From a virus (lineage: Duplodnaviria > Caudoviricetes): a stretch of 64,000 bases of DNA. A model generated the notes under the pieces. The model saw nothing but the letters and a program-made list of their open reading frames with translations. It ran no database searches and had not been told where the DNA came from. Below, one piece after another: positions 1 to 14,810 of this stretch (its first letter is position 1; every line of letters begins with the position of its first letter). The position numbers and the translations under genes are program-made. The stretch lies in the IMG/VR virus record IMGVR_UViG_3300014205_000185, positions 53,994 to 117,993 of that record. One strand, written 5' to 3'.

Positions 1-2
1 TG

Positions 3-653
3 CCCAGTGAGCCAGCCGTCGTGATGAATTCCGGTTACCTGGTCAATGAAGGAGCCGGGACAGCCGCTGTGGCGCCAGTCGGCGACCAGTTTCCAGTCGA
101 CCGCGGCGATGCCCGCGTTCGGATCCCAGGTAGCTACCGTGAGGGCCCCCTTCCAGCACATGATGCCGGTGGCATCAAGGTGCCCCTCGACGAAGGAGTC
201 GTCACCGATGACGTTCCAGTGCTCTCCGTTCGCACGGAACTCCACTTTGGACACGGACCACATGGTCTCGGCCTGCTGCATGGCCGTCACGTGAGTGCTC
301 ACATGATGAGGGAGCAACTCATCGTCGTCGCCAAGGAAGCCAACGAACTCACCCAGCGCCAGCCTGGACCCGAGCATCCACGGCACTGCTCCATTGGCAG
401 CCCTGGTGGCCGCGTTCTTCCAGGTGTCGTTGATCTCGATGAAGCGCACGCGCCGGCCCTGAGGGTCATAGCGGTGCTGACTCACGTACAGGTCGTGCAG
501 GCCCTCGTTTTCATCGCTGATGATGACGTGCTCGATCTTTCCGTCGTAGTCCTGGCGAAGGACTGACGGCATGCAGCGGCCGAGCAGCTCGTCCTCGCGG
601 CCGGGGATGGTCGGCGTAACGATCGAGACGAGCGGCCTACTTGGTTCGGTCAA
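3..653 (-). CDS. GT2-family glycosyltransferase (runs off the left edge)
   Basis: Not in ORF track; manual translation from TTG 653: MTEPSRPLVSIVTPTIPGREDELLGRCMPSVLRQDY...GEFVGFLGDDDELLPHH (GT-A fold start and DxD motif); no stop before position 1. Confidence 0.8.
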   Translation of the reverse strand, partial: MTEPSRPLVSIVTPTIPGREDELLGRCMPSVLRQDYDGKIEHVIISDENEGLHDLYVSQHRYDPQGRRVRFIEINDTWKNAATRAANGAVPWMLGSRLALGEFVGFLGDDDELLPHHVSTHVTAMQQAETMWSVSKVEFRANGEHWNVIGDDSFVEGHLDATGIMCWKGALTVATWDPNAGIAAVDWKLVADWRHSGCPGSFIDQVTGIHHDGWLTG

Positions 654-1596
654 GGTCGGCCTCGATCATCCGGCGAACGACTTCCTCGAACTTGACGGTG
701 GCCTCCCAGCCCAGGATGCGCTTTGCCTTGCGCGCGTCGGCCTGGAGCAGCTCTACGTCAGCTGGCCGGAAGAGACTCCGCTCGGAGACTACGTAGTCCT
801 GCCATTTGAGCCCGACGTAGCCGAATGCAGCCTCACACAACTCCGTAACGGAGTGGACTTCGCCAGTACCCAGGACGTAGTCCTCAGGCTCCTTCTGGGC
901 CGCCATGAGTGGCAGTGCCGCCATGAACTCGGGAGCCCAGCCCCAGTCACGTCGAGCTTCCATGTTGCCCAGCTGGAGCACGTAGTTACCGGTGCCAGCT
1001 CGATAGGCTGCCACCGCACCCCGGACCACCTTGCGAGTGACGAACTCGAACCCGCGCCGCGGCGACTCGTGGTTGAACATGATCGCTGCGGAGGCGTGGA
1101 TGCCGTAGGACTCGCGGTAGTTGATCACGGTGTGGTGTGCGAAGGCCTTGGCGACGCCATAGGGAGAGCGGGGGCTGAGCGGGGTCAGCTCGTCCTGTGG
1201 GACCTCGCGCACGGCTCCATACATTTCGGAGCTGGAGGCGTGAACCAGACGGATCTCGCGGTTCACGTTTCGGATCGCTTCCAGCATCCGTAGGACCCCG
1301 AGCCCAGTTACCTCCGACATGAGTGTGGGCTGGAGCCACGAGGCGCCGACGAACGTTAGGGCGCCAAGGTTGTAGACGACCTCAGGCTGAATCTGGGCAA
1401 GCAGGGTCTGTAGGCCCGACTGGTCGAGCAGGTCGCCCTCGACGAGGCGCAGCGTTGGCAATTCCTCTTGGAGCTGGTCCCTGGCGGGTCCCGGCCGCCC
1501 CCGGACCATGCCGTAGACCTCGTGCCGTTCCGCCAGGAGCTGCTGGGCAAGATAGAACCCGCTCTGGCCGGAGACTCCTGTGATCAGAACCCGCAT
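637..1596 (-). CDS. gmd: GDP-mannose 4,6-dehydratase
   Basis: LITGVSGQSGFYLA Rossmann motif, ASSSEMYG, SPYGVAK, FNHESPRRG, FVTRK, LGNMEARRDWG. Confidence 0.92.
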   Translation of the reverse strand: MRVLITGVSGQSGFYLAQQLLAERHEVYGMVRGRPGPARDQLQEELPTLRLVEGDLLDQSGLQTLLAQIQPEVVYNLGALTFVGASWLQPTLMSEVTGLGVLRMLEAIRNVNREIRLVHASSSEMYGAVREVPQDELTPLSPRSPYGVAKAFAHHTVINYRESYGIHASAAIMFNHESPRRGFEFVTRKVVRGAVAAYRAGTGNYVLQLGNMEARRDWGWAPEFMAALPLMAAQKEPEDYVLGTGEVHSVTELCEAAFGYVGLKWQDYVVSERSLFRPADVELLQADARKAKRILGWEATVKFEEVVRRMIEADLDRTK

Positions 1597-2273
1597 GTGG
1601 ATTCCCTATCTAGGTGGCATAGATACTCGAAGCTGGGGATGGCCGACGAGATGTCGTGACGGACCATCGGCTTGACTTCCGGTCGCGTGGTCATGGCCAG
1701 CTGGTACATGGTCTTGGCCCCGGTGCCCACCCAGCGAACGGCGTCGGTAATCGCGTCCTGGTGTACGGCGCTGTGGATGAGCTTGGCGATGACGTGGTCG
1801 CTGTCGCCGATCGTCCACATGTCAGTGAAGGCGCGCGGGTACTCGAAGGGGTCGCTGCGGAACGATGTCCTCAGGACCATGTAGCCGTGACGGTGCCGTT
1901 GGACTTCACGTTCGGCCTGAAGCTTGGTCGAGATGTAGAAGTTCCAGGGCTCCAGGACGCACTCAGTCGAGATGAGAATGATGGGACACCGCGCCGCGGA
2001 GACAAGGTTCCGGGTGCCTAGAACGTTGGTACGGAAGCATTCCCATGCAGCAGCCGGGTTGTTGTCGGGGGCGCGAGTATTGGTGTAGGCCGCTGCGTGG
2101 ACGATCAGGCTAGCGCCACTGCCCCAGACGTAGCTGTTCACCATGTCGGGGTCGGTGATGTCCAGCTCGCTCCGGCTAGGCGCTATGTAGTCGCCCAGCT
2201 GGAGCAGCTCCCTGCCGAGTTGGCCGGTACCGCCAGTGAGAAGGATGGCGCCGGTCCGCTCCGGTTGCCTCAC
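1584..2273 (-). CDS. RmlD-like NDP-4-keto-6-deoxyhexose reductase (SDR)
   Basis: LLTGGTGQLGREL, LDITD, IVHAAAYT, NVLGTRNL, ISTE, YxxxK; GTG start overlapping upstream stop. Confidence 0.8.
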   Translation of the reverse strand: MRQPERTGAILLTGGTGQLGRELLQLGDYIAPSRSELDITDPDMVNSYVWGSGASLIVHAAAYTNTRAPDNNPAAAWECFRTNVLGTRNLVSAARCPIILISTECVLEPWNFYISTKLQAEREVQRHRHGYMVLRTSFRSDPFEYPRAFTDMWTIGDSDHVIAKLIHSAVHQDAITDAVRWVGTGAKTMYQLAMTTRPEVKPMVRHDISSAIPSFEYLCHLDRESTCGF

Positions 2274-3478
2274 AGGAGTACCGGCACGGGGATCGGCACC
2301 AACCACTGACCCTGGAAAGCCTTCTCCCGCTGGAGCACGCCGGACAGGTAGTTCCAGATGCCCAGCAGGTAGACGTCGGGCGCCCGGCTATCCGACCGTG
2401 GGTCGATGATCGGGATGCCGGTGCCCGGGGTGTAGCGCCCATGCTTGGTCGGCGTGGTGTCCACGAAGTACTGGACTAGCTCGCGATCAATGCCACAGAA
2501 GTTCAGTAGCGTCGTCGACTTGGCCGAGGCGCCGTAGCCAGCGACCCGCTTTCCCTCACGCTTGAGTTCGAGCAGGAGCCCGAGCAGCTTCGCCTGGATC
2601 CGATCGGCGCGACCCTGAAGCCCGTCAAGAACGTGTTCGTCGCGCAGCCACTCCTCGTCGTGGAGTAGTCGGGCAACGCTGTACTCCGGCGGATACCCGA
2701 TCTCACGTCGACCGATGACCACCCGTAGGGAACCGCCCTGTGGATTTGTCTGGGTGACGTGCAGCGGCCGTAGGCCGTGCCGCTCCAGGGCGTAGGTGAG
2801 CGACGTCAGGGAGAAGAACTGCCGGTGTTCGTGGTAGACGTGGTCGATCTGATTGCCCGTCACGAGGTCGGCCAGGTACTGGAACTCGACGACGGCCTCA
2901 CCGTTAGGTGCCAACACGATGTTGAGGCCCTCGATGAAGTCATTGAGGTCGGCCACGTGGGCGATGACGTTGTTGGCGATCACCAGTCCCTGGTGTCCAT
3001 GTTGGACGACGATGCGTAACGCCGCATCGGTACCGAACCCTTCGACCCACACGTTGAGTCCGGCCTCCTGCGCTTTGATCGCAGGTCCCTGGGCCGGGTC
3101 GATGCCGAGCGTTGGATAGCCGGCTGCGGCAAAGCTCTTGAGCATGGTGCCGTCGTTACAGGCAATCTCCAGTACGCCCAGGCGGCACAGGTCCGGAAAC
3201 TTGGCCATGAGGTCTGCTGCGTATGCCTTCTGGTGCTCCACAGCTACCCAGGAAGAGCCTGTGTAGAATCCGTAGTCCCCGCCCCACAGGATGTCGTCGG
3301 GCACTACCTCGGTTAGCTGGACCAGCGTGCAGCGGTTGCACCGGAACAGCCCTAGCGGGTAGCGCTCCTGGACCTGGTCTGGGTCCGTCGGGAACTCATC
3401 CGCGAGAGGGCTATCGCAGAGGTACAGCACCTCATGAAGATTGGTCGAGTGGCAGCTGCCGCAAACCTCACGCCTCAT
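2270..3478 (-). CDS. NDP-hexose C3-methyltransferase (TylC3/EryBIII-like)
   Basis: N-terminal CxxC..CxxC Zn site, LEIACNDGTML, NNVIAHV, DHVYHEH, GGSLR, GYGASAKSTTLLN. Confidence 0.9.
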   Translation of the reverse strand: MRREVCGSCHSTNLHEVLYLCDSPLADEFPTDPDQVQERYPLGLFRCNRCTLVQLTEVVPDDILWGGDYGFYTGSSWVAVEHQKAYAADLMAKFPDLCRLGVLEIACNDGTMLKSFAAAGYPTLGIDPAQGPAIKAQEAGLNVWVEGFGTDAALRIVVQHGHQGLVIANNVIAHVADLNDFIEGLNIVLAPNGEAVVEFQYLADLVTGNQIDHVYHEHRQFFSLTSLTYALERHGLRPLHVTQTNPQGGSLRVVIGRREIGYPPEYSVARLLHDEEWLRDEHVLDGLQGRADRIQAKLLGLLLELKREGKRVAGYGASAKSTTLLNFCGIDRELVQYFVDTTPTKHGRYTPGTGIPIIDPRSDSRAPDVYLLGIWNYLSGVLQREKAFQGQWLVPIPVPVLL

Positions 3479-4434
3479 TGCCATGACCCTTCGTAGACGG
3501 CTTCCCACTTTGATACGTGTTTGTCGATCGTAAACTCCAGCGCCTTGAGCATGGCAGCATTGCTCATTTGCTCCCGGAGGGTGTCATCGGTAAGGGCGTG
3601 GAGGTACTTGGGCCAATCGTCAGGCTCGCGAACCAGGAATCCATTCACTCCGTGATCGATAATGTCGGCATACTCCCCGATGTCACTGGCGATGGCCGGG
3701 ACGCCCTGAGCGAAGTACTCCTTGACCTTGATTCCGCTCTTGCATTGGTTGAACGGAGTGTCGACCAGTGGGGCGATACCGATGCTGAAGTCCATCGCCT
3801 TCCAGTAGTTCTCCATGATGTCCCAGCCGGTGTAGCGCGCTCGCACGTGTGGGGCCATGTAGTTGGCCCCGATGCAGTGGAACCGAGCCCGCGGCTCATG
3901 GGCGGCATAGATCGCCAGCTGCTGGCCGACGCCGGGCCAGTCCTGCTGATGGAACATGCTGCCGGCCCAACCGACGATGACCTCGTCGCCCTGTTGATGG
4001 CGCACCGAGGCGATCCAGTCGGCCGGCAGGCAGTTGGGCAGCACTACGACATTGGGATTCAGCTCCCGCATCCGGGCGGCGAGTTTCGGCGTCGAGACCG
4101 TGACCACGTTGGCGAGCCGGATGTTGTTGGCGGTGTCGGCGGCGATCGGAGCGTAGATCGAGTACGGCAGCGAGTTGCTCGGGTCGACCTCTAGCAGGTT
4201 GTCGTCAAGGTCGTAGACCGCCAGGAGGTTGGGATTGGCGCACATCTCCTCCCAGGCCGTGTTCTTACCCGCGATTCGTTGACCTATAACGACATCACCT
4301 AGCGATGGGTCCGGCGGTGGCGGGGACCAGTGCACCTCGAAGCGACTCGGGTCGAGCTTGTTCAGCGGGTAGTGCAGACGGTACAGATAGCAGGCGGCGC
4401 CATCGGTGGCGATGGCAAAGATTCGAGTTACCAC
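3475..4434 (-). CDS. GT4-family glycosyltransferase
   Basis: YDLDD, VTVSTPKLA, VGWAGS, IGIAPLVDTPFNQCKSGIKVKEYFAQGVPAIASD, DHGVNGFLV. Confidence 0.88.
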   Translation of the reverse strand: MVTRIFAIATDGAACYLYRLHYPLNKLDPSRFEVHWSPPPPDPSLGDVVIGQRIAGKNTAWEEMCANPNLLAVYDLDDNLLEVDPSNSLPYSIYAPIAADTANNIRLANVVTVSTPKLAARMRELNPNVVVLPNCLPADWIASVRHQQGDEVIVGWAGSMFHQQDWPGVGQQLAIYAAHEPRARFHCIGANYMAPHVRARYTGWDIMENYWKAMDFSIGIAPLVDTPFNQCKSGIKVKEYFAQGVPAIASDIGEYADIIDHGVNGFLVREPDDWPKYLHALTDDTLREQMSNAAMLKALEFTIDKHVSKWEAVYEGSWQ

Positions 4435-5099
4435 GGCACATACCCCCAACGCTTACGGAATGCCTCGCGGTCCCGGCCGGTCTGTTCGCCGAGTCCGGGA
4501 ATGGTGTTGGTGTAGTCGCCCGGACGGCTGTTCGGGGCGGCCGGGCCGCCGACCATCACCATGCCGCCGTTGATCCGGCAGTCGAAGTCGACCGACGTGT
4601 CCTGCCACCACCAGTGCATCGTTTCGTCTGCCCTGATTCCCCTGTCGCCGTCAATGACGTAGGCCCAGCCGACCATCCGCCCGGCGATGTCGCTGTCGGG
4701 TGCCGTCTTGACCACAGGCGCATGCTGGCGCCCCCAGGGGTTAGCACAGCCGGCCGTGGCCCCCGTCTCGCGCATACCTGCCACCACTCGCGCGTACCAG
4801 TCGCCAGGAACGATGACGTCGTCGCAGAGCATCGCGATGTCTCGTGGCTCGTTGTGGGTGATGCTGGCCAGGAGGTCCCAGCCGATGTTCCACATCCGAG
4901 CGATGTTGGGCGGCTGTTCGGGCCAATAGAACGAGGCCACCCGTGAGTCCTTCGGGATGTCCGATGGCGGGCTAGAGGCGTTATCGAAGATCAGTAGCTG
5001 GTCTACCTGAGGCAAAATCGCCTCGATGCCGGCCCTTAGTAGCTCGGGCCGATTGTGGGTCAGGATCAAGGCGCAGCGCACGCGCTCGTCAGTAGTCAT
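4428..5099 (-). CDS. GT2-family glycosyltransferase
   Basis: ILTHNRPELL, IFDNAS, WNIG, MLCDDV, DREAFRKRW. Confidence 0.8.
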   Translation of the reverse strand: MTTDERVRCALILTHNRPELLRAGIEAILPQVDQLLIFDNASSPPSDIPKDSRVASFYWPEQPPNIARMWNIGWDLLASITHNEPRDIAMLCDDVIVPGDWYARVVAGMRETGATAGCANPWGRQHAPVVKTAPDSDIAGRMVGWAYVIDGDRGIRADETMHWWWQDTSVDFDCRINGGMVMVGGPAAPNSRPGDYTNTIPGLGEQTGRDREAFRKRWGYVPW

Positions 5100-5286
5100 C
5101 AGTGGCCAGCGCCTTGGCGATACGGCCCATGAGTGCAGCTACTTCGCCTGAGGTCCCGTGGAACTCGATCGTCGTCAACGTGTCCCTGTTCTCGATCACG
5201 AGATTGAACCTTCCCCACGACTCCTCGATCTGAACGCTGGAACCTTCAGCGGGGATCCGGAGGCGATCCATATGAGCCCGGCTCAT
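5089..5286 (-). CDS. hypothetical protein
   Basis: 65-aa ORF tightly overlapping both neighbours. Confidence 0.6.
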   Translation of the reverse strand: MSRAHMDRLRIPAEGSSVQIEESWGRFNLVIENRDTLTTIEFHGTSGEVAALMGRIAKALATDDY

Positions 5287-5705
5287 GCGCCGTACTCATC
5301 CGCAGTAGCGGCGTGAGCTGACTCCAGGATGCCCGCCGCCTCGTTGGGGCTGAGCCCGTGGTCGTCTACGAGCTGCTGGAACAGGTGCCGATAGACTTGC
5401 CACCAGCCGTAGGTCGACGTTGCGCCATCTCGCTCCATGATCGCCTGCTTTAGATAAAGCGCCATATCGAGCGCTTCTTCGTAGGCATCCTGAAGCGCAT
5501 CTCGTCCGTTGTGCGCCTGTAGATGACTGCCGTACTTCTCCGCCCGTCGACCGCAAAGCTCTTCGATGTCGGCAAGTACGCGATCCTTCACGAACGGGCC
5601 ATCGTGGACAATCGGCGGCGGTTGCGATGAATCACTCATGACAGGTCCAGCGGGGTCTCGGAATTTGCGAGCGATGTAGTCGAGGGCCTCAGTCTTGGTC
5701 ATCAT
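5283..5705 (-). CDS. phage protein with MazG-like all-helical motif
   Basis: KYGSHLQAHNGRDALQDAYEEALDMALYLKQAIMER. Confidence 0.55.
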   Translation of the reverse strand: MMTKTEALDYIARKFRDPAGPVMSDSSQPPPIVHDGPFVKDRVLADIEELCGRRAEKYGSHLQAHNGRDALQDAYEEALDMALYLKQAIMERDGATSTYGWWQVYRHLFQQLVDDHGLSPNEAAGILESAHAATADEYGA

Positions 5706-6087
5706 CGCCGACCTCGCCAGCGTCCTGGTCGGTGTCGAGCGTCAGCTTTAACCAGCGACGGCTCTCGCTCGTCAGGCCCTGGCTGATGGCCTCGGCCTTC
5801 GTCTTGAAGATGCGCCAGTCGACGTAGTCGCCATGGCAGCCCCAGCCAGTGGTGTCATTGCCGGCATGCACGGTGGCCCAGTCGCCGTTCTGTAGCTCCA
5901 CGAGTGCGGCTAAATCGGTGTCGTTATAGCCGTCGCCTCCGACGTCACTGGAGTACATGGCCCACACCTTGTAGACCTGCCCCAGAGTCACCTGTTCGCC
6001 ATCGCGGGGGTAGCTCTTACCTAGTACCTGCTGCCAGTCATAGGGCCCCCAGCCGGGCAGAGTCGGTAGCTCGCTGATCTCATCCAT
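5689..6087 (-). CDS. hypothetical protein
   Basis: 132-aa ORF overlapping both neighbours in the operon. Confidence 0.65.
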   Translation of the reverse strand: MDEISELPTLPGWGPYDWQQVLGKSYPRDGEQVTLGQVYKVWAMYSSDVGGDGYNDTDLAALVELQNGDWATVHAGNDTTGWGCHGDYVDWRIFKTKAEAISQGLTSESRRWLKLTLDTDQDAGEVGDDDQD

Positions 6088-7129
6088 TGCTTGCCTGCTG
6101 GATCTCGTAGGCCTTCGTCCAGGCCTCTAACCAGCGCCAGGAGTTCAGCTCGATAGTTTGCGTCCGCATATGTTCGCGGCCTCTCTCTCCCAGGTCCTTG
6201 CGAAGCGCGTCATCGTCCATCAGGCGCTTGATCTCTTTGTACCAGTCCTTGGGGCGGTCCACGAGGAGCCCCGCGCCTGATTCCGCGGCGAAGCGTCGGT
6301 ACTCGGTCCTGGGACTCGCCACCCAGGGAACGCCGGCCGCGGACGCTTCGATGACCTTTAATCGACTCTTCGAATGGTTGAACGGAGATATTTCCAGCGG
6401 GGCCATAGCCACCTTGAGCTTGGCGGTCTGCTCGACCCAGTTCTCCAGGGGAATGATCCCGGTTACATCGGGCTCCTCCTTGAGGCGCAGCGCGTCCTTC
6501 ACCTTGGAGGGGGGGCCGACCACCCGGAACTTGTACCCGTCGTCAATCAGCTCCTGCACAGCTCGACCGCAGGTCTGTAGGTCGACGGGGTGAGACTGCG
6601 TCGTCCCAGCCCAGCCGAAGACGTCGTCTGGCTCGACTTCGATGTCCAGATAACGCTGTGGCACGTAGTTGTCGATGACCATTCCTCGGTCATGCTTGGC
6701 GTAGACCTTGAGCAACGTCCTGGTCGAGAGAGTCACCAGCGTGGCGGCTGCGCAGGCGTACTCAGCGTTCTTCCAGGAGTACGGCGTATTCGACCGAGGA
6801 TGATAGTTCCCGTAAGCGGCGTTCTGCTTGTGGATCGCGGTGAGGTCGTCGTCCATGTCGATGACCACCGCTACGCCCTTCTTGCGAAGGAGCTTGATCA
6901 CGGCTGGATGCCAGTTATGGGCCACTCGCTGGAGCACGAGTACATCAGCACCTGTAGGTACCACCACGTCCACGACTTCTGCGTCAATGAACTTAATCTC
7001 CAGGCCAGAGCCGGTGTTAGGCCACTGGATCTCGATGTCGTGGCCCTGGCTGGCTAAGTGCTCGGCAGCCCAGATCAACCGGTAGTAGCCACAGCCTGCC
7101 GCGTCCGCGGGTATCACCAGAATCTTCAT
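6080..7129 (-). CDS. GT4-family glycosyltransferase (paralogue of 3475-4434)
   Basis: GCGYYRL, IDMDDD, FGWAGT, APLEISPFNHSKSRLKVIEASAAGVPWVAS. Confidence 0.88.
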   Translation of the reverse strand: MKILVIPADAAGCGYYRLIWAAEHLASQGHDIEIQWPNTGSGLEIKFIDAEVVDVVVPTGADVLVLQRVAHNWHPAVIKLLRKKGVAVVIDMDDDLTAIHKQNAAYGNYHPRSNTPYSWKNAEYACAAATLVTLSTRTLLKVYAKHDRGMVIDNYVPQRYLDIEVEPDDVFGWAGTTQSHPVDLQTCGRAVQELIDDGYKFRVVGPPSKVKDALRLKEEPDVTGIIPLENWVEQTAKLKVAMAPLEISPFNHSKSRLKVIEASAAGVPWVASPRTEYRRFAAESGAGLLVDRPKDWYKEIKRLMDDDALRKDLGERGREHMRTQTIELNSWRWLEAWTKAYEIQQASNG

Positions 7130-7198
7130 TTGGTCACCGTGCCCCTGTTGGGTTGCCCATTTGGCGAACCCTATTGCATCCGTCCCCCAGAAAGTGGA

Positions 7199-7477
7199 CT
7201 AGACCGGGCTCAGTACGTAGTTCTGAGTGAAGGTGGTCGGGTCCATAGTGAGCAGCGTGCTGCCCGATCGGATGATCCAGTTGTTAACCGGAACAGGGAT
7301 CGGAGCGTAGCCCGGGATGGTCGTCACCGGGACACCGGTCGGCTCCAGATACAGGACGCTGTCTCGGATGACTGCGTTGTTGATGACGCCAGAGTTCGCC
7401 CGGACGAACTGCCGCACCTCTATGACGTTGGTACCGAGCCACTGGAGGGCTTCGACGTAGGGAAGATATCTGACCAT
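7199..7477 (-). CDS. hypothetical protein
   Basis: 92-aa ORF immediately after tail genes. Confidence 0.65.
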   Translation of the reverse strand: MVRYLPYVEALQWLGTNVIEVRQFVRANSGVINNAVIRDSVLYLEPTGVPVTTIPGYAPIPVPVNNWIIRSGSTLLTMDPTTFTQNYVLSPV

Positions 7478-7480
7478 CTG

Positions 7481-8281
7481 TCAGTACCAGCCTCTCGCTT
7501 GCCACGAGCATCCCGCGATGAAGTTCGCTCCATGCTCAGAACGGAAGACGAGCGAAGTATATGGACCAGTAAGGAGGGCGATTCCGCCAACGTTGCGCTG
7601 CCATTGGTTAACGCCGAACGCCACCGCATTCGAGTTCGTTTCGAAGCTGGGGAAGAGGTAGCCAGGCCGATACCAGCCACTACAGACAATGTTGCCGCTA
7701 CCGTAGACAGTCGCCGTTGCCGCGGCCGTAGTCATGACGCCACAGTCGAAAGACGTCTGCGCATTGCCATTGATGGTAGAGGAGACACCCGAGGCAACCT
7801 GAGTTCCTTGGTAGAAGTACGAAGCAGTGCTGAGGTCATTTACTCGCATCAACATGGTCTCAGCCATGAAGCCGCCATAGTCGGTGCGGACTATCCAGTT
7901 GATCTGGAAGTTTTTAAGCGTGGCCGGGACGTTCATGGTCACAGTGGCCAAGGCCGAGTTCAGGAAAATGTTCTTGGTCCACTCCGCGGGAGTGGCATAG
8001 CCAACGATGAAGTTTCCTGACGGCGGGACCGAAATGACGTAGACCCGACCTCCGACGTTAAGAATATCCACCATTGGAACGGCTGTAATCGACTCCGTAT
8101 CTCCGTCTAGCAGAATGAGCGCAGACGTGATCGCATTTGTAACGCTATCCGCGGTCACCTTAACGACACTTGCCATCCTCAGTTCCCAGGTCAGCCCGAG
8201 CGCGTTTGCGTTACTGACGATCGCCCTTGCCTGCGCGGTGGCCAGCGGAGCCGGGTCGTTGGAAAGCGGAGGGCTGGTCAC
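7481..8281 (-). CDS. putative minor tail/tip protein
   Basis: Position at end of tail module; beta-rich, S/T/G/N-rich. Confidence 0.6.
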   Translation of the reverse strand: MTSPPLSNDPAPLATAQARAIVSNANALGLTWELRMASVVKVTADSVTNAITSALILLDGDTESITAVPMVDILNVGGRVYVISVPPSGNFIVGYATPAEWTKNIFLNSALATVTMNVPATLKNFQINWIVRTDYGGFMAETMLMRVNDLSTASYFYQGTQVASGVSSTINGNAQTSFDCGVMTTAAATATVYGSGNIVCSGWYRPGYLFPSFETNSNAVAFGVNQWQRNVGGIALLTGPYTSLVFRSEHGANFIAGCSWQARGWY

Positions 8282-9333
8282 CGGTATCCTCGCCGTAGCG
8301 TGTGAGACATGGGCTCTCCTGCCGTTAGGGTCAATGACCAGGCCACCTCAAGCCACAAGTCGTTTTGCCACTTAATGACGTTGTAGCTGTCGTGACGGGG
8401 GTCTGCTGCGGTCGATAGATTGGTCGTCTGGAACAGGAGGCGACGCTGCATGATGTTCTGCGCAATTGCAGTGCACTGGGCAATCGAACCAACCTGAAGG
8501 TTGGTCACTTCAGTGATCCTGAATCCGCGCTTCTCGAAAGAGTTCGGCGCGTTCACGGGGACGTCTGCAATGCCGTAGGTTGCAACACTGCGATCGGCTG
8601 ATGCAGTAGATGCGACGATGAATCTGTTGGGGGCGTTGAGAATGTTCGATGACTCAGTGATCGAATCTCTCATCACCTGATCGCCCTCGTCCCAGTCAAA
8701 GTCCGGGATCGCGAATGCCGGGTTGAAGTTGCGAATGAAACGCATCACGTCGGTGTTGTCGAACCATGGACTGAGGTAGTCGCCAGTCAGTGCCAATGAT
8801 TCGATAATGCTGCCTCGGCGGGCGCCGAATCCCCATGACTCAGTGGTGTCGTAGGGCGATGGCTCGATTGTGTACGTAATCGGAAAGTCGCGGATCAGAT
8901 TCTCAACCGCGACAGTGACGGCTGTGTTTGTCGCGAATCCTTCTTCTATCGGCTGGTCGATGATATACATGCGGTCATTCAAGGTGGCGTTGCCAAGACG
9001 GCCCGAAGTAAATAACCGTGACGTCTCATCAGAGAACAGGTAGCGACCCATCGGGTATTCGACCCCGCTGGGGAAGGTCATCTTTACCGTGACCTGATCG
9101 GTGATCGGATTGATTGCCGCGGTGTCGGCGCGACCAAAAGCCAATCGCAGCTGGCGCTTGATCGCCCGAGTCGTGTCATGGCTCAACGTTGCCGGCCGAA
9201 TCGGTGTGATCGTACCCAGATTCTCGCCGGAGACACCGTTGATGAGGTTGAACCGATAGCTGTACTGGCGCTGTCCAACCCATGGAGCAAGGTCCAGGAT
9301 CGGGTCATACGGAAAGTTAGTGAGCGCCGGCAT
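8278..9333 (-). CDS. minor tail (hub-like) protein
   Basis: Synteny; motifs VEYPMGRY, WFDNTDV, PNRFIV typical of actinophage minor tail proteins. Confidence 0.65.
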   Translation of the reverse strand: MPALTNFPYDPILDLAPWVGQRQYSYRFNLINGVSGENLGTITPIRPATLSHDTTRAIKRQLRLAFGRADTAAINPITDQVTVKMTFPSGVEYPMGRYLFSDETSRLFTSGRLGNATLNDRMYIIDQPIEEGFATNTAVTVAVENLIRDFPITYTIEPSPYDTTESWGFGARRGSIIESLALTGDYLSPWFDNTDVMRFIRNFNPAFAIPDFDWDEGDQVMRDSITESSNILNAPNRFIVASTASADRSVATYGIADVPVNAPNSFEKRGFRITEVTNLQVGSIAQCTAIAQNIMQRRLLFQTTNLSTAADPRHDSYNVIKWQNDLWLEVAWSLTLTAGEPMSHTLRRGYR

Positions 9334-12300
9334 CTATGGGCTCACCTGGCTTGCTGTATCGGTGACCTCGACGATCTGAACGGTCGCCTCGTAGAGTCGC
9401 CGCCGGTTACGCACCACGCCACTTGGCACGTTGATGCTAGCGAACCAGCGATTGCCGTCCTCGTCGCGAACGCAGACGTAGGAGACGTCCTCCCAAGCGA
9501 GGTCTCGGAAGGAGACGAAGTCGGCCAACGTCTCTGGCGCGATAGCTGCTGCCTGGACCAGTACCGTCCGCTCGAACTGCTCTCCGCCACGTTCCGTCGG
9601 TCGGAACGCAGTAAAGAAGTTCCGGTCATACATGGGCTGAAGTTGAGTGAAGCTTGCCTCCGGGAAGGTGAATGGTTCAGAGACTTCGCTCTCCCATACC
9701 GAGGAGTACGCCAGGTTCGAGCCACCATTCTGGTGCTCGTTGGTCGTGAAGATCAGTACGTGCGCGTTTTCGAGGCAGCTTCCGCTAACTCCCGGCGCAG
9801 CCATGGTCGTGGTGACGGTATCAGACCAAGGCCCCTCGAATCCGTACGACGACAGCCGCCGGATGCGATAGTACGTCTCGACGCCGACTCTTGCCTCATA
9901 GTCTTTGAAGCTCACAATGTACGGATCGTCGGACAACATGATGGTCTGCCAGTCGGTGATCTCATCGCTACGCTGAAGCTCGTACGTGATCTCATTGATC
10001 TCATTGACTGTATTGAGCTTGAACTCAGTAAGAGTAATGGTGTACGGGATGTTCGAGGCGTTTATAGTGAACCCGACTGCGACGGTGCCGCCAGTGAGAG
10101 GGATACCCGTATCAAAGGTGGCGACAGTCCATTCCTCTGGTTCATTGTTGCGCTGGTTCCATGCTTTTGCGCGTAGTACGCCACCGAGCGCCTGTGCCTT
10201 TAGTCGCCAGCTGGACGACTCAGTGGCATCGTACTGAATGCCCGGCACGTCGATCGCACCCGCCGATATTGTTAACGATGGATTGCGGTCGATATTCACT
10301 GAGCCATAATGAGTACCGGACCCGGGAAGATTTGGCGGCCCTAAAAGCATGTAGAATTTGTAATGCTCACTCGCGGTGTATCGCAGTCTGATCTCGGCGG
10401 TGATGTAGGACGTCGCCGCGAGAGCGGGCACAAGGGCCGGCGCGGTGAATGCGATCTCTACCTCCTGGTCCTTGGAGACCAGACCGCTAATTGGTGAGAC
10501 ACTGCCCTGGGGCGACGCGGAGTAACTGGTGATGAAGGCGCTAGATCCTGTGGTGCTCTGAGTGGCAGTTCCGGTTCCAGTTGCCCAGCTGTAGCCATAG
10601 TTTGTCGAACCGAGGCTACCGGTAACGGCAGGTCCGTCGAACGTGTCATAGATCGTGACAGTATTCGGGCCCCAAGTTAATTGATTGTAGTGAATGGCTG
10701 TTGGTATACCGCACGGATCGATTCCACAATTTTGGCCAATGCCAGTCACGGGCATGCTCATCTGCGTCACCGCAAATCCGGTAACGACAGGCATGTCTGG
10801 TCCGAATATGACCGAGACATCGGCCGATTGGTCCGGTGTCGCTGTCGCGTAATAAGGTCCCCACTGCGGCATCCAGGACTCGTAGACGGAAGCGCCAGAG
10901 ACGGGAGCGCCATAAGTGGCGGAATTTAGGCGCTGAGTCAAAGGCACTTGCGGGAATGCGGAGTTCGGCCCGAAGGGTGAATACACCACATAGATCGCAG
11001 TGCCCGATGCGGCGGGCGCATAGGCGCCAAGCACTTCCCATCTATTGCCCGATGTCTCACCAAAGGCCGACCACCGCCAAGTGGGGTTCAGGCCGGTGCC
11101 CATCTGCGGCGGACTCTCAAAACGAAGGACTATCTCTTTCCAGCCGTCGAGAATCTCGTCGAGCGCATCGAACTCGGCGGGCGTGATCTCAACCTGTTTT
11201 CCAATGCCAGTCAAGCTCGGGCTGTTCAGGCAGTCCACGCGGAGTGGTGCCGTAGTGGCGCCGAAACGGCGGGCATAGAACCGAATCCAGGGCCACGTCT
11301 GCAAGGAGCCAATGACACCATCGTCGATGGTCTGATACACGTAGTTGGTGCTGTAGACCTGGGCCGCCGACTGGCGACCGTAGACGTGACTCTCGGTCAA
11401 GGGGTTGCCACTCGGGGAGTGCAGAGTCAGCTGAGGCAGAAGATCTGTGCTTTCGACGGTGAATGTGCTTCCGATGATCTCCTCGTTCAACGGGAACGGG
11501 ATATTGACCTGAACTGCCTCATGCGACGGGATCTCATATAGCTGTCGTGCCTCGTTGAGGATTGGGTAAGGCTTAGATGTGTTCAGCGCCGACAGGGCGT
11601 CGCCATTGTTCGACTCGCTGAGGGTTACGACATATTCGCCAGACGCAATAGATGGGCTCAACGCTCCGGCCGGGGTTCGAAGGGCGATTGCGTTAGCGCC
11701 CAATACAAACGGACTGCGGGTGTTGAACTCGGACGCGATCGTCGGGCCCATGATGCGGCGAGTGCCGAAAGCCACTCTCCGCTCCTCGCAGTAGAACACC
11801 TCCAGGTACGCTGTATAGATTTGCAGCGTGGCGCCGATGGCAAGCGGAGCGACCGGATAGTAACTGGAATTGATCAGCATGAAGATTCGGTTAGCTGCGG
11901 TTCCCTCAAACCGCTGCAACTCTGTGAACGTCCATTGCTGAATGTTGGGGTTGTACGTGCTAAAGCCGCCGGTCATGCCTAAGGTCGGGTTAGCGTCACC
12001 CAGTCGTGTGCGAACTGTATGTAGTCCGGTCACTGTGGTGCTGTTCGCCAGTGGCGACATCTGGATAATGCCAAAGGTAGAGCCGTCTGGGAAAGACGTC
12101 AGAGTATCGTTCGACAGCCACATGTCTGTCGGGAAGTCGTACCCGTCGGTCGCCTGGCTCTGATCTATGTAGTACGAAACGACGAAGTCGACTCCGAGGA
12201 TCCGCTTGCCGCTGAGCAGGTTAGCGTAGTTGGTGACGGAAAAATGGAATTTGGCGTACTGGTTACTGAATCCGGGATTCCACTGTAGATAGCTGTCGTC

Positions 12301-12663
12301 ACCGCCGTCGAACATGGCTTCAGCCATGCTGGCGGTCTTAGTAAAAGATGGATAGAAGTACGTGTTCGAGTTGCCGGTAACGCTGCCGTTATTGCAGGGG
12401 AGCCGGATGGATCTGACTGGCCCTGACTGCTCTTCTAGGCCCTTGGGATAGATGCTCGCCGTAAACATACGGTTCCGGATGTAGTACTCCGGAAGAGTGT
12501 TCACGTAGAACTTCGCAGTAGGGATCGTCGTAGTCGCGTTTAGAAGAAAGGAATGGCCACGCTCGATAGAGTTGGCGAACGAGTTGAAGACGAGGTCTTC
12601 GTCTCGAATGGGAACCCATTCTTGCCCCAGAATCTGGGGGGCGCGAGGGTTGTATCTACCCAT
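9334..12663 (-). CDS. large minor tail protein (1109 aa)
   Basis: Directly after tape measure; C-terminal FKDYEARVGVETYYRIR distal-tail-like motif. Confidence 0.7.
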   Translation of the reverse strand: MGRYNPRAPQILGQEWVPIRDEDLVFNSFANSIERGHSFLLNATTTIPTAKFYVNTLPEYYIRNRMFTASIYPKGLEEQSGPVRSIRLPCNNGSVTGNSNTYFYPSFTKTASMAEAMFDGGDDSYLQWNPGFSNQYAKFHFSVTNYANLLSGKRILGVDFVVSYYIDQSQATDGYDFPTDMWLSNDTLTSFPDGSTFGIIQMSPLANSTTVTGLHTVRTRLGDANPTLGMTGGFSTYNPNIQQWTFTELQRFEGTAANRIFMLINSSYYPVAPLAIGATLQIYTAYLEVFYCEERRVAFGTRRIMGPTIASEFNTRSPFVLGANAIALRTPAGALSPSIASGEYVVTLSESNNGDALSALNTSKPYPILNEARQLYEIPSHEAVQVNIPFPLNEEIIGSTFTVESTDLLPQLTLHSPSGNPLTESHVYGRQSAAQVYSTNYVYQTIDDGVIGSLQTWPWIRFYARRFGATTAPLRVDCLNSPSLTGIGKQVEITPAEFDALDEILDGWKEIVLRFESPPQMGTGLNPTWRWSAFGETSGNRWEVLGAYAPAASGTAIYVVYSPFGPNSAFPQVPLTQRLNSATYGAPVSGASVYESWMPQWGPYYATATPDQSADVSVIFGPDMPVVTGFAVTQMSMPVTGIGQNCGIDPCGIPTAIHYNQLTWGPNTVTIYDTFDGPAVTGSLGSTNYGYSWATGTGTATQSTTGSSAFITSYSASPQGSVSPISGLVSKDQEVEIAFTAPALVPALAATSYITAEIRLRYTASEHYKFYMLLGPPNLPGSGTHYGSVNIDRNPSLTISAGAIDVPGIQYDATESSSWRLKAQALGGVLRAKAWNQRNNEPEEWTVATFDTGIPLTGGTVAVGFTINASNIPYTITLTEFKLNTVNEINEITYELQRSDEITDWQTIMLSDDPYIVSFKDYEARVGVETYYRIRRLSSYGFEGPWSDTVTTTMAAPGVSGSCLENAHVLIFTTNEHQNGGSNLAYSSVWESEVSEPFTFPEASFTQLQPMYDRNFFTAFRPTERGGEQFERTVLVQAAAIAPETLADFVSFRDLAWEDVSYVCVRDEDGNRWFASINVPSGVVRNRRRLYEATVQIVEVTDTASQVSP

Positions 12664-12682
12664 GTAGTGGCTCCTTTCTTCC

Positions 12683-14737
12683 TTAGACGGGCCAGATCAT
12701 GCTGCGGACGGCGAGGGCGATCTGGCGTTCCTCAATGGTCTTGGCGACCTGTGAAGCGACTGCGCCGCCGGTCATGTTCGCTTGGCTCTGGGTCGCGGGA
12801 GCGCCAGAGAAGTTGACCATGATTGCTCCCGCGCCGAAGCTGATGTTGCTGACCGCCCGGCTGCTGGCGTCCGCCAGGGCCGGAGCCTCCATGTCCATAC
12901 CGGTCGCGACTCGCTCGATGATCTTCTGGCCTGCGATGAGAGGGTCGCCCGAGCCTGATAGCGGTCCAGTCTTGGCCGGCGAGAAGGGCCAGTGGTCCCG
13001 GACTATCTTGGCGGCCCAGTCGACAGCGTCACCGAGCCAGGAGAACTTGCTCTTTATGCCCTCAACAAGCATGTCGACGATCTTCGCGCCAGCCTGATAC
13101 ATGGCGTCCCAGAGGCCCTTTAGCGCCTCTCCGATCTTGCCCGGGATCGACTGGATGAACTCGATCGCCTTATTCCACTCGCCGGTCAGGGCACTGAAGA
13201 TCGCCATACCGATAGTGGAGATGACCTCGAATATGCCCTTCAGGATTGCCCCGATACCTTCGACCAGTCCCTTCAGGAACGTGAAGAGCACCTTGTTGAC
13301 CAGGACGATCATGCTCCATACGAACTGGAAGAACTCCGCGAAGGCGGGGATGAGCCAGTACCGGACAAATTCGGCCGTTGACTCCAGTAGGGCGAAGACG
13401 GCGCCAATCCCTAGGAACAGGAACAGGAAGGCGTAGCCGAGCGCCTGAATGGTGTGAATGAGTCCCTCAAGGGCCGCGGCGCCAAGCTCTGACTTGAAGA
13501 ACTCGGACAAGATCTCGAACTGCTTGGTGATGTCCTCTAGGAACTTGTTCCCGCCGGCCTTGTCCAGCTCCGCCACAAAGTCCTTGATGCCGCCGACGAT
13601 CGCACTGATGGAATCGCCAAGCAGTCCGAGAGTTACCTTGACCCGCTCTAGCCAGGCCAAGAACTCTGGGTCGTTCTTCAGCTCCGAGAGCCATCTACCA
13701 AAGCCGGCCACCGCGGCATTGAACTTCTCGCCGAACCAGTTCATGAACGGCATTACCGTCGTGCCAAGCTCGGCAAATCCGATTAGCAGCGTCTGGAGTG
13801 CGGGCGTGAAGGTCTGAATCCACTTCACGGTGGACGGGATCAGCTCACTGACGAACTTCTGGAAGAACGGGTTGTTGAAGAAGGTAACGACACTTCGAGC
13901 CAGAGTGCCAAGCGCCTCAGCGATCTGACTAATGCCCCCAGTGCCGATGCTCTGGATGCCCTTGATGAAGACGCTTATGCCATCCCCGAAGGACTTGAAG
14001 AAGCCCTCCTGGGCTACCGCGGAGAACTCCTTGAACAGCTCCCTAAGGGGCAGCAGGGACTTGACGAACTCCTGTGCGGCTGGCGTCAGGCCTTCTATTG
14101 CCTTTTGTAGCTCGTCGGCATTCTTCGCCGCGAATGCACCCTGGATAGCGGTCCCTAGTCCCTTGAAGGCTAGGAACAGGACGCCAACTTGGAGAATGAT
14201 CGCGCCGAGCAGCCCCGGCACGATGTAGAGGAGCGCGATCAGCGCCTGTACGCCTTGGATGAGGCCGCCGATGAGCAGAGCGATCTCGCCGACCACGGGA
14301 ATGAGTAACGCGATCAACGGCGAGCGACCAGAAACGTTGAAGCCGGCGCCAACGGCATCACCGATGGCCTGTCCGACCTTCTTGAAGGCTCCGGTGACCT
14401 CTGGACTAAGCGCCTCGTGCTCGGCATCTCGTGCCGCCGTGCGGATCCAGCGCTTGACAACGTTGCCGTCGCGGTCGATTTCCCAGGTAGACCCGGTGAT
14501 ATGGATTCGACGGCTATTGAGGCCGTTCTGAAGCTCGACGGCTAAGTCTGAGCCTCGATGCCTAAGTTCTGGGCCCATGCCATCAGCGATGGCATCTCCC
14601 ATGTCCTTGCCGGTCTTCTTGAGCTGGGCGTCGCCATCTCTACCAATGGCATCCAGCGACTGCTTGACTTCGCGAGGGACGCGGCTGCTGTCGACCGTTA
14701 ATTGAGCAACGAGTTCAGCATCAGGAACGCCTGCCAC
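12683..14737 (-). CDS. tape measure protein
   Basis: Ala/Gly-rich helical, periodic aromatics, C-terminal WPFSPAKTGPLSG motif. Confidence 0.85.
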   Translation of the reverse strand: MAGVPDAELVAQLTVDSSRVPREVKQSLDAIGRDGDAQLKKTGKDMGDAIADGMGPELRHRGSDLAVELQNGLNSRRIHITGSTWEIDRDGNVVKRWIRTAARDAEHEALSPEVTGAFKKVGQAIGDAVGAGFNVSGRSPLIALLIPVVGEIALLIGGLIQGVQALIALLYIVPGLLGAIILQVGVLFLAFKGLGTAIQGAFAAKNADELQKAIEGLTPAAQEFVKSLLPLRELFKEFSAVAQEGFFKSFGDGISVFIKGIQSIGTGGISQIAEALGTLARSVVTFFNNPFFQKFVSELIPSTVKWIQTFTPALQTLLIGFAELGTTVMPFMNWFGEKFNAAVAGFGRWLSELKNDPEFLAWLERVKVTLGLLGDSISAIVGGIKDFVAELDKAGGNKFLEDITKQFEILSEFFKSELGAAALEGLIHTIQALGYAFLFLFLGIGAVFALLESTAEFVRYWLIPAFAEFFQFVWSMIVLVNKVLFTFLKGLVEGIGAILKGIFEVISTIGMAIFSALTGEWNKAIEFIQSIPGKIGEALKGLWDAMYQAGAKIVDMLVEGIKSKFSWLGDAVDWAAKIVRDHWPFSPAKTGPLSGSGDPLIAGQKIIERVATGMDMEAPALADASSRAVSNISFGAGAIMVNFSGAPATQSQANMTGGAVASQVAKTIEERQIALAVRSMIWPV

Positions 14738-14810
14738 AGCAACACCACCCCTCAAGACAAGATGCAGCGGAGTGGGTCAGCAGGGCCAGGCGCCACTCCA
14801 AGCAGTGTAT

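What the first reader, a model, noticed from the sequence alone, without database searches (positions are those of the whole stretch)
3..7129. Phage-encoded branched-sugar biosynthesis plus four glycosyltransferases at the end of the virion operon
Seen: co-oriented, mostly overlapping genes for Gmd, an NDP-sugar C3-methyltransferase, an RmlD-like reductase, 2 GT2 and 2 GT4, directly downstream of the tail genes. Known: some actinophages glycosylate their virions with phage GTs; dehydratase, C3-methyltransferase and 4-ketoreductase together make 6-deoxy-3-C-methylhexoses (evalose/virenose type). Inference: this phage makes its own rare branched sugar from GDP-mannose to coat the virion, or to modify DNA or the host surface.
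Basis: partly seen in the sequence, partly recalled or inferred. Interest (0 to 1): 0.8.

Follow-up and report, generated by a model that had tools for sequence, protein, structure and literature searches.

The report
Phage branched-sugar and glycosyltransferase island
An uncultured 118-kb phage of actinobacteria ends its tail-gene operon with enzymes that should turn the host's GDP-mannose into a rare methyl-branched deoxy-sugar, plus five sugar-attaching enzymes; the sugar chain probably goes on the virus particle, but no evidence here shows the target.

Summary
On the minus strand, right after the tail genes, lie a GT-B transferase, three small ORFs, a GT-A transferase (shown by fold only), a second GT-B, a TylC3/TcaB9-type sugar C-methyltransferase, a short RmlD-like reductase, a true Gmd and a GT2. 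The island runs past the window edge to a fifth transferase, an NlpC/P60-like lysin and a strong terminator.

In 56 related viral contigs a three-transferase core sits at the same spot. The C-methyltransferase, Gmd, reductase, O-methyltransferase and FAD-oxidoreductase genes come and go. Gmd lies beside the C-methyltransferase in several relatives, in an unrelated actinophage contig (there right after its capsid gene) and in cyanophage DSL-LC02. This supports a GDP-route branched sugar.

No island protein has a membrane segment. The genome has no hydroxymethylase, tyrosine integrase or sugar-1-phosphate nucleotidyltransferase. Virion glycosylation is therefore the best reading, but it is unproven, and the transferases show no detectable homology to those of Che8, Corndog or Myrna.

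I found no paper describing a phage C-methyl sugar module. This scan has already noted the same module on other DNA (e1-3448391, e1-5785297, e1-3066956). Verdict: a new variant of a known kind, of moderate interest.

The parts
6080..7129 (-). GT4a: GT-B glycosyltransferase (349 aa), first gene of the island; part of the family-wide core
   Evidence: Pfam Glyco_trans_1_4, Glycos_transf_1 and Glyco_trans_1_2. Homologues at 37-76% identity in nearly all related loci with enough downstream flank. 36% identical to Arthrobacter phage Atuin gp165.
5689..6087 (-). 132-aa ORF of unknown function, start/stop-coupled to its neighbours
   Evidence: No Pfam, NCBIfam or PHROG hit. A homologue only in L026, at 60% identity.
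5283..5705 (-). 140-aa ORF of unknown function
   Evidence: Residues 56-95 match PHROGs of unknown function (phrog_11184, phrog_7609). Two partial matches lie at two places in the island of L009.
5089..5286 (-). 65-aa ORF of unknown function
   Evidence: No hits. Not found in relatives.
4428..5099 (-). u223: GT-A fold glycosyltransferase (223 aa) with an invariant DD motif; part of the family-wide core
   Evidence: No Pfam hit. AF2 model pLDDT 91, and all top Foldseek matches are GT-A transferases. Best profile match in PDB sequences is GmaR, E 2e-4. 34% identical to the transferases Zuko gp108 and KimJongPhill gp109. Invariant D93 and D94 in alignment A4.
3475..4449 (-). GT4b: second GT-B glycosyltransferase (up to 324 aa; start uncertain); accessory. 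A Glyco_tranf_2_5 transferase lies just before the C-methyltransferase in L003, L004 and L006
   Evidence: Pfam Glyco_trans_1_4 and Glycos_transf_1. Distribution.
2270..3478 (-). NDP-4-keto-sugar C-methyltransferase of the TylC3/TcaB9/MtmC type (402 aa as called)
   Evidence: Pfam Methyltransf_13, Methyltransf_23 and Methyltransf_14. PDB sequence matches 4rv9, 3ndi and 5t6b at E about 1e-66, aligned end to end, with Cys4, the His and the YxEH motif conserved.
1584..2273 (-). Short RmlD-like SDR (229 aa as called): predicted NDP-4-ketosugar reductase
   Evidence: Pfam RmlD_sub_bind over the N-terminal 150 aa only. GxxGxxG, STE and YxxxK are kept. More than 85 homologous clusters, all of about 213 aa. 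AF2 pLDDT 93; best folds are RmlD structures at TMq 0.74-0.78, and Rmd 2pk3 at 0.67.
637..1596 (-). GDP-mannose 4,6-dehydratase (Gmd, 319 aa, short form)
   Evidence: PF16363 E 5e-103, full length. P. aeruginosa Gmd 1rpn E 9e-90 over 315 aa; the S-x-E and YxxxK motifs are visible in the printed alignment. TIGR01472 scores 316.6 bits, below the 415 cut-off but far above the dTDP-glucose dehydratase model at 100.7.
1..653 (-). GT2a: GT2 glycosyltransferase (224 aa; its first 7 codons lie outside the window). Downstream outside the window follow GT2b (L001:811-1458), an NlpC/P60-like lysin (L001:166-627) and a terminator (L001 137..101)
   Evidence: Pfam Glycos_transf_2 for GT2a and GT2b. Lysin by ESM Atlas features and structure. 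Hairpin with a 16-bp stem and T-rich tail.

Best explanation
This is a late-expressed, fully cytoplasmic glycan-building island.

Proposed steps (all inferred):
1. Gmd converts host GDP-mannose to GDP-4-keto-6-deoxymannose.
2. The TylC3-type methyltransferase adds a methyl group from SAM to a carbon next to the keto group, most likely C3.
3. The short RmlD-like reductase reduces C4. The product is a GDP-6-deoxy-C-methylhexose of the evalose/virenose class, of unknown stereochemistry.
4. Five soluble transferases (two GT-B, three GT-A) assemble a glycan containing this sugar on a protein acceptor. The most likely acceptors are virion proteins made at the same time, as in mycobacteriophages Che8, Corndog and Myrna.

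Shown here: gene identities, intact catalytic motifs, folds, operon structure, conservation and the modular make-up across relatives.
For: Enzymes:
- Identities and motifs.
- Reductase fold.
- GT-A fold of u223.

Coupling:
- The genes overlap by 4-22 nt.
- No minus-strand terminator-like site occurs before the 16-bp hairpin that follows the lysin.
- The C-methyltransferase is directly followed by Gmd in L004, L007 and L008, and in the unrelated phage contig L012, where the module sits right after the capsid gene.
- Cyanophage DSL-LC02 has Gmd, C-methyltransferase, GDP-fucose synthase, then a run of six transferases and an FkbM methyltransferase.
- Gmd copies are far more divergent between cassettes than the methyltransferases (47% against 68% for window and L004). 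This fits repeated recruitment of Gmd.
- The short reductase shares contigs with the methyltransferase in at least 20 metagenome cases (equal contig lengths). It also occurs with the methyltransferase but without Gmd in L005 and L006.

Target:
- A GT4a + u223 + GT2b core lies after the tail genes in almost all of the 56 related loci that have enough downstream flank. phiAsp2 also has transferase-methyltransferase-transferase genes there.
- No island protein has a membrane segment.
- The genome has no thymidylate-synthase-type hydroxymethylase, no tyrosine integrase and no NTP_transferase.
- Published precedent: glycans on the C-termini of the capsid and tail tube of mycobacteriophages (Freeman et al. 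2023, as cited in PMC12619734, PMC11600133 and PMC12363180).
Against: - All characterised members of the methyltransferase family use dTDP-sugars (PMC3539893). No sequence feature here shows GDP specificity.
- The methyltransferase occurs without Gmd in at least 10 related loci. Gmd is therefore not obligatory.
- Some family members (NovU, CloU) methylate C5 (my own knowledge).
- The transferases have no tblastn match (E 1e-3) to any Mycobacterium phage. The link to Che8/Corndog/Myrna is analogy, not homology.
- The capsid protein has no Ser/Thr-rich C-terminal tail, and the tail tube of this phage ends in a short CGCAAV.
- Soluble transferases can also act on lipid-linked acceptors.
Confidence: 0.55

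Rival explanations
1. There are two separate sugars, not one pathway. Gmd plus the short reductase make a plain GDP-6-deoxyhexose (D-rhamnose or 6-deoxytalose type). The C-methyltransferase independently methylates a host dTDP-4-keto-6-deoxyhexose.
For: All characterised family members use dTDP-sugars. The methyltransferase is common without Gmd in relatives. The reductase fold also resembles GDP-4-keto-6-deoxymannose reductase 2pk3.
Against: The reductase travels with the methyltransferase rather than with Gmd: it is present in L005 and L006, which lack Gmd, and absent in L004, L007 and L008, which have Gmd. Methyltransferase-Gmd adjacency recurs in three unrelated phage backgrounds.
Confidence: 0.2
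2. The glycan is built on a lipid-linked or cell-wall precursor and changes the infected cell's envelope, for example to stop progeny binding debris or to block superinfection. It does not go on the virion.
For: Peripheral GT-A and GT-B enzymes without membrane segments commonly act on polyprenol-linked acceptors (general knowledge). GT2a and GT2b give weak hits to WcaA, TuaG and PglI models. The island lies next to the lysis gene.
Against: No flippase, polymerase, initiating phosphoglycosyltransferase or membrane protein is in the island. No tyrosine integrase was found. The island sits in the late operon after the tail genes, and in L012 right after the capsid gene.
Confidence: 0.15
3. The transferases glycosylate phage DNA, using a hypermodified base as acceptor, to evade restriction.
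For: Phage transferases that hypermodify DNA with multi-sugar glycans are known (Pyle et al. 2024, cited in PMC12619734).
Against: No thymidylate-synthase-like hydroxymethylase is in the genome. The genes are in the late virion/lysis operon rather than among replication genes. The same module lies beside a capsid gene in L012.
Confidence: 0.05

Closest known systems
Virion glycosylation of mycobacteriophages Che8 (cluster F), Corndog (cluster O) and Myrna (cluster C) (Freeman et al. 2023, Cell Host Microbe 31:1216; known here only through citing papers PMC11600133, PMC12363180, PMC12619734)
   Same: Actinobacteriophage. Several soluble phage-encoded transferases, with methyltransferases, lie in or beside the virion operon. 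[quoted passage not shown]
   Different: No detectable sequence homology of the transferases. Those cassettes, as described in the papers I could read, hold an O-methyltransferase but no Gmd, C-methyltransferase or ketoreductase. Glycosylated virions have not been shown for this phage family.
Proposed GDP route to virenose (6-deoxy-3-C-methylgulose) in Coxiella burnetii: Gmd, the TylCIII-like product of CBU_0691, and an epimerase/reductase (PMC3539893, PMC3204966)
   Same: The same three-enzyme logic starting from GDP-mannose. The C-methyltransferase family is the same.
   Different: That pathway is bacterial and feeds LPS O-antigen, and its own methylation and reduction steps are only predicted. 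Here the reductase is a short RmlD-like SDR rather than a GMER/Fcl type, and the context is a phage late operon.
Synechococcus phage DSL-LC02 (OR032571; metagenome-assembled) sugar cluster
   Same: Gmd, a TylC3-like methyltransferase, a reductase (GDP-fucose synthase), then a run of six transferases and an FkbM methyltransferase, in one phage operon.
   Different: It is a T4-like cyanophage. Its methyltransferase is only 27% identical and its reductase is of the Fcl type. Its paper reads the genes as GDP-fucose synthesis and does not mention the C-methyltransferase in the passages searched (PMC10611076).
TylC3 / EryBIII / TcaB9 / MtmC / KijD1 dTDP-sugar C3-methyltransferases of antibiotic pathways
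   Same: Same three-domain architecture. The Zn Cys4 site, SAM motif and His/YxEH catalytic residues are kept. E about 1e-66 over the full length.
   Different: Those enzymes act on dTDP-4-keto-2,6-dideoxy or 3-amino sugars in actinomycete secondary metabolism. Here the neighbour is Gmd and there is no RmlA or RmlB.
Glycosyltransferase sets of Actinoplanes phage phiAsp2 (pas33-35), Streptomyces phages Zuko and KimJongPhill, and Arthrobacter phages Atuin, Mimi, Racecar and Talia1610
   Same: Homologous transferases in Zuko/KimJongPhill and the Arthrobacter phages: u223 34%, GT2b 35-42%, GT4a 36%. The phiAsp2 cassette lies right after the tail genes, as here.
   Different: These are annotated only as transferases or methyltransferases. 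None has a C-methyltransferase, Gmd or reductase in the regions inspected. I know of no functional data.

Membership tests
GDP-mannose 4,6-dehydratase (Gmd) | Full-length match to the family model, with best solved relatives all Gmd | tested here: met
   PF16363 E 5e-103, profile positions 1-332 of 332. The top 11 PDB sequences are Gmd; 1rpn E 9e-90.
GDP-mannose 4,6-dehydratase (Gmd) | Score above the NCBIfam equivalog cut-off (TIGR01472, 415 bits) | tested here: not met
   316.6 bits. It is a short form like the 323-aa P. aeruginosa enzyme, and it still scores three times the dTDP-glucose dehydratase model.
GDP-mannose 4,6-dehydratase (Gmd) | Catalytic Ser/Thr-x-Glu and Tyr-x3-Lys | tested here: met
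   'SSSEMYG' and 'YGVAK' align to the same motifs of 1rpn. Residue roles are as listed in PMC3539893.
TylC3/TcaB9-type NDP-hexose C-methyltransferase | Zn-ribbon, class I SAM domain and C-terminal Methyltransf_14 domain | tested here: met
   PF08421, PF13489 and PF08484, all above cut-off.
TylC3/TcaB9-type NDP-hexose C-methyltransferase | Four Zn cysteines, active-site His and Tyr-x-Glu-His | tested here: met
   CxxC...CxxC, 'IAHV' and 'YHEH' align with MtmC. They are invariant or nearly so in 14 homologues. Residue roles are from my recollection of the TcaB9 work.
TylC3/TcaB9-type NDP-hexose C-methyltransferase | dTDP-linked 4-keto sugar substrate; methylation at C3 | not testable with these tools
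   Only gene context bears on this. Gmd adjacency argues for a GDP-sugar. C3 against C5 is unknown.
RmlD (dTDP-4-dehydrorhamnose reductase) | Rossmann GxxGxxG and catalytic Ser/Thr, Tyr, Lys | tested here: met
   'TGGTGQLG', 'ISTE' and 'YISTK'. Invariant Y113 and K117 in alignment A2.
RmlD (dTDP-4-dehydrorhamnose reductase) | Full-length (about 290 aa) match above the TIGR01214 cut-off (224 bits) | tested here: not met
   50 bits, profile positions 2-148 only. The protein is 229 aa and its family is about 213 aa. It is RmlD-like in fold (TMq 0.78) but not an RmlD orthologue.
Actinophage virion glycosylation systems (Che8/Corndog/Myrna type) | Phage-encoded soluble transferases in or beside the virion operon | tested here: met
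Actinophage virion glycosylation systems (Che8/Corndog/Myrna type) | Transferases homologous to the proven ones (Che8 gp110, Corndog gp38, etc.) | tested here: not met
   tblastn of GT4a, u223 and GT2b against 50,697 phage records gave no Mycobacterium phage match at E 1e-3. GT2a and GT4b were not searched in this way.
Actinophage virion glycosylation systems (Che8/Corndog/Myrna type) | Glycan on capsid and tail-tube subunits | not testable with these tools
   Sequence gives only weak hints. Tail-tube C-termini in relatives carry short Ser/Thr/Pro-rich tails after a conserved PPxxxCGC. The capsid has none.
Serotype-converting / envelope-modifying phage transferases (GtrABC type) | Membrane transferase and flippase; temperate phage | tested here: not met
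   No membrane-like segment in any island protein. No tyrosine integrase. Serine integrases were not searched.
Phage DNA glycosylation (T4 alpha/beta-GT type) | Hydroxymethylated base pathway and early or replication-module location | tested here: not met
   No PF00303 match in the genome. The island is in the late operon. Other acceptor bases were not searched.

The most novel reading that the evidence does not exclude
A large family of uncultured actinophages coats its particles with a glycan that contains a C-methyl-branched 6-deoxyhexose made by a GDP route. This would be the first branched-chain sugar known in any virus and the first GDP-dependent TylC3-type C-methyltransferase. The tailoring genes are swapped between relatives like O-antigen genes, which implies selection for glycan diversity on virions.
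Probability: 0.4. Interest if true: 0.7.

Novelty: new variant of a known kind. Interest (0 to 1): 0.55.

Why it matters
Virion glycosylation in phages was shown only in 2023, for three mycobacteriophages. There it reduces antibody binding and neutralising-antibody production, which matters for phage therapy.

This island suggests the phenomenon is widespread in soil actinophages. It also suggests that it uses sugar chemistry (C-methyl branching) so far linked to antibiotics and to Coxiella LPS, and that it evolves as a swappable module.

The island also offers a compact, soluble three-enzyme set to test whether TylC3-type methyltransferases can work on GDP-sugars. That step is still unproven in the proposed virenose pathway.

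Tried and rejected
- Megablast of 1-7200 against GenBank phages found no match.
- Single-protein pattern scans found nothing for the methyltransferase in genome contigs or for the 1109-aa tail protein in viral contigs. Profile queries then worked.
The contexts of the many metagenome homologues could therefore be inferred only from equal contig lengths.
- Freeman et al. 2023 is not held. Its content is used only through citing papers.
- hhalign of the u223 profile against the GT2b profile was weak (probability 23%). The GT-A assignment of u223 therefore rests on the fold and on homology to annotated phage transferases.
[quoted passage not shown] Nothing convincing appeared in this phage.
- A presence/absence correlation between the island and virion-protein C-termini was not possible, because almost every relative has the transferase core.
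- The 80-aa ORF between GT2b and the lysin looks like an off-frame artefact (Arg/Pro/Ala-rich) and was dropped.


Full report
**Context.** The window is bases 53994-117993 of a 117,993-bp IMG/VR virus record that CheckV rates as complete. PHROG matches identify a long minus-strand late operon. It runs from the terminase (60495-63890) through the portal (38334-40256), a 4309-aa protein, the major capsid protein (19771-21492), the major tail protein (17712-18407) and the tape measure (12683-14755). It continues with a 1109-aa tail protein, a tail protein at 8278-9333 and two small ORFs. The capsid protein is most similar to actinophage capsids; the best match is Actinoplanes phage phiAsp2 at 44%. 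The phage context of the finding is therefore real.

**Observation.** After a 69-nt gap at 7130-7198, the same strand carries ten ORFs in the window. They overlap by 4-22 nt.
- GT4a, 6080-7129: Glycos_transf_1 family, GT-B.
- Three small ORFs with no informative match, 5089-6087.
- u223, 4428-5099.
- GT4b, 3475-4449: GT-B.
- A C-methyltransferase, 2270-3478.
- A short SDR, 1584-2273.
- Gmd, 637-1596.
- GT2a, 1-653.

The whole-genome ORF map and Pfam show that GT2a starts 21 nt before the window. It is followed by a fifth transferase, GT2b (L001:811-1458), and then a 153-aa protein. The ESM Atlas places that protein with NlpC/P60/CHAP peptidases by features and by structure, so it is the likely endolysin. 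A hairpin with a 16-bp stem and a T-rich tail follows it (L001 137..101, minus strand). No other minus-strand terminator-like site lies within the island. The island is thus the tail end of the late operon, between the tail genes and the lysin.

**The enzymes.**
- *Gmd.* It aligns end to end with P. aeruginosa Gmd (1rpn, E 9e-90), and the Ser-x-Glu and Tyr-x3-Lys motifs are present. It scores below the TIGR01472 cut-off (316.6 against 415 bits) but far above any other dehydratase model.
- *C-methyltransferase.* It has the Zn-ribbon, SAM and Methyltransf_14 domains. It aligns over its full length with MtmC, TcaB9 and KijD1 (E about 1e-66). The four cysteines, the His and the YxEH motif are kept.
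- *Short SDR.* It keeps GxxGxxG, Ser/Thr and YxxxK, but only its first 150 residues align with RmlD. It is not a truncation: more than 85 metagenome clusters at 50-59% identity are all about 213 aa long. Its AF2 model (pLDDT 93) is closest to RmlD structures (TMq 0.74-0.78). It also resembles GDP-4-keto-6-deoxymannose reductase.
- *u223.* It has no Pfam hit. Its model (pLDDT 91) matches only GT-A transferases, and it has an invariant DD motif. It is 34% identical to annotated transferases of Streptomyces phages Zuko and KimJongPhill.

The genome has five transferases in the island.

**Relatives.** Seven IMG/VR contigs carry the methyltransferase at 61-71% identity, always after homologous tail genes. 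A profile of the tail protein retrieved 56 loci of this phage family.
- Nearly all loci with enough downstream sequence have GT4a, u223 and GT2b homologues at the same place.
- About 16 have the methyltransferase.
- About 5 have Gmd, always together with the methyltransferase.
- The short reductase was detected in only one of the 56 (L028, the same contig as L009). It is also in L005 and L006, which came from the methyltransferase search.

Other loci carry different tailoring genes in the island:
- a Methyltransf_24 O-methyltransferase with an FAD oxidoreductase;
- a UDP-glucose/GDP-mannose dehydrogenase;
- further SAM methyltransferases;
- extra GT2 or Glyco_tranf_2_5 transferases.

Amidase_2 or GH25 lysins follow. 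phiAsp2 also has transferase, O-methyltransferase and transferase genes right after its tail genes. The picture is a conserved transferase core with swappable sugar-tailoring modules.

**Evidence for a GDP route.**
- The methyltransferase gene is directly followed by Gmd in L004, L007 and L008.
- The same order, followed by a GT2a homologue, occurs on a contig binned with a Jiangellaceae MAG (L012).
  - That contig is a phage of a different lineage, with phrog_9 terminase, phrog_12 portal and a phrog_10 capsid.
  - There the module begins right after the capsid gene.
- The metagenome-assembled cyanophage DSL-LC02 has Gmd, a 27%-identical C-methyltransferase and GDP-fucose synthase, then a run of six transferases and an FkbM methyltransferase.
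  - Its paper discusses only GDP-fucose.
- Gmd copies differ much more between cassettes than the methyltransferases do: 47% against 68% for the window and L004. This is compatible with repeated recruitment of Gmd next to the methyltransferase.
- The short reductase shares contigs with the methyltransferase in at least 20 metagenome cases, judged from equal contig lengths.
  - It also occurs with the methyltransferase but without Gmd in L005 and L006. It is thus more likely the partner of the methyltransferase than of Gmd.
- The genome has no sugar-1-phosphate nucleotidyltransferase, so GDP-mannose must come from the host.

Against this:
- Every characterised family member uses dTDP-sugars (PMC3539893).
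- Many relatives have the methyltransferase without Gmd.
- C3 against C5 methylation, and the stereochemistry, cannot be read from sequence.

**Target.**
- No island protein has a membrane-like segment. There is no flippase, polymerase or initiating transferase.
- The genome lacks a thymidylate-synthase-type hydroxymethylase and a tyrosine integrase.
- The late-operon position, the placement beside a capsid gene in L012, and the published glycosylation of capsid and tail-tube C-termini in Che8, Corndog and Myrna (citing papers) make virion proteins the most likely acceptor.

This is analogy only. GT4a, u223 and GT2b give no tblastn match to any Mycobacterium phage. The capsid C-terminus is a conserved ICPNGSTGxQRxVTC with no tail. 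The tail tube of this phage ends in CGCAAV, although many relatives carry short Ser/Thr/Pro-rich tails after a conserved PPxxxCGC.

**Origin.** The closest methyltransferases in 185,579 species genomes are the two Jiangellaceae-MAG contigs (49-51%). One of them (L012) is shown to be phage-like; the other (L015) was not examined. All others are 35-39% identical. More than 100 metagenome clusters are 50-72% identical. This looks like an established phage clade rather than a recent host capture. Among 50,697 deposited phage records, only seven have any homologue (all at 33% identity or less), and none is an actinophage.

**Novelty.**
- Phage virion glycosylation and virus-encoded Gmd are known. 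The three-step logic has been proposed for Coxiella virenose (PMC3539893, PMC3204966).
- My literature searches found no description of a phage C-methyl sugar module.
- This scan has already reported the same module on other DNA (e1-3448391, e1-5785297/5312, e1-3066956). It is recurrent rather than unique to this genome.
- I class it as a new variant of a known kind.

**Limits.** Freeman et al. 2023 could not be read.

Noticed in passing
L001:166-627 (minus; genome 52659-53120, just left of the window): A 153-aa protein at the end of the operon resembles NlpC/P60/CHAP peptidases in ESM Atlas features (0.96) and structure (TM 0.76-0.79). It is the likely endolysin. A hairpin with a 16-bp stem follows at L001 137..101. 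No Amidase_2 is present anywhere in the genome.
   Followed up: partly
L012 (DASTNZ010000192.1, Jiangellaceae MAG contig) 5-10743: This contig, binned as bacterial, is a phage or prophage piece: terminase, portal, protease and an HK97-like capsid. Right after the capsid gene follow two transferases, a C-methyltransferase (49%), Gmd (52%) and a GT2a homologue. It gives a possible host hint and shows that the module moves between unrelated virion operons.
   Followed up: partly
L010 (Synechococcus phage DSL-LC02, OR032571.1) 5980-15227: The operon holds Gmd, a TylC3-like C-methyltransferase (annotated only as 'methyltransferase domain-containing protein'), GDP-fucose synthase, then a run of six transferases and an FkbM methyltransferase. 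The published description treats it as GDP-fucose synthesis.
   Followed up: partly
window 17712-18407 (major tail protein) and homologues in L026-L081: Tail-tube C-termini share a conserved ...TRLAPP(T/A)xxCGC motif. Short variable Ser/Thr/Pro-rich tails follow (for example TTLSSLTPS). Distant members have NITTTPPPTPPxxCGA. These could be acceptor sites, but that is untested.
   Followed up: partly
window 5283-5705: The 140-aa ORF inside the island has a 40-residue segment matching several PHROGs of unknown function. Two partial matches lie at two separate places in the island of L009. It may be a small mobile or regulatory gene.
   Followed up: no
L003:11164-12740, L005:12012-13552, L026:16038-17596: In relatives without Gmd, the methyltransferase (plus the short reductase in L005) is followed by a Methyltransf_24 O-methyltransferase and a DAO-family FAD oxidoreductase. 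This is an alternative tailoring module of unknown chemistry.
   Followed up: partly
L034:14009-18914: This variant island holds a divergent C-methyltransferase (30%), a UDP-glucose/GDP-mannose dehydrogenase and another SAM methyltransferase.
   Followed up: no
window 60495-63890: The terminase large subunit ORF is 1131 aa. Its terminase matches are split (residues 66-458 and 825-1124) around a middle part that hits helicase and head-protein PHROGs. It may hold an intein or an inserted domain.
   Followed up: no
window 2270-3478: The collection holds the window's own methyltransferase on two contigs, the longer of 129,883 bp. That is longer than this 117,993-bp record, so another assembly of this phage may extend further.
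   Followed up: no
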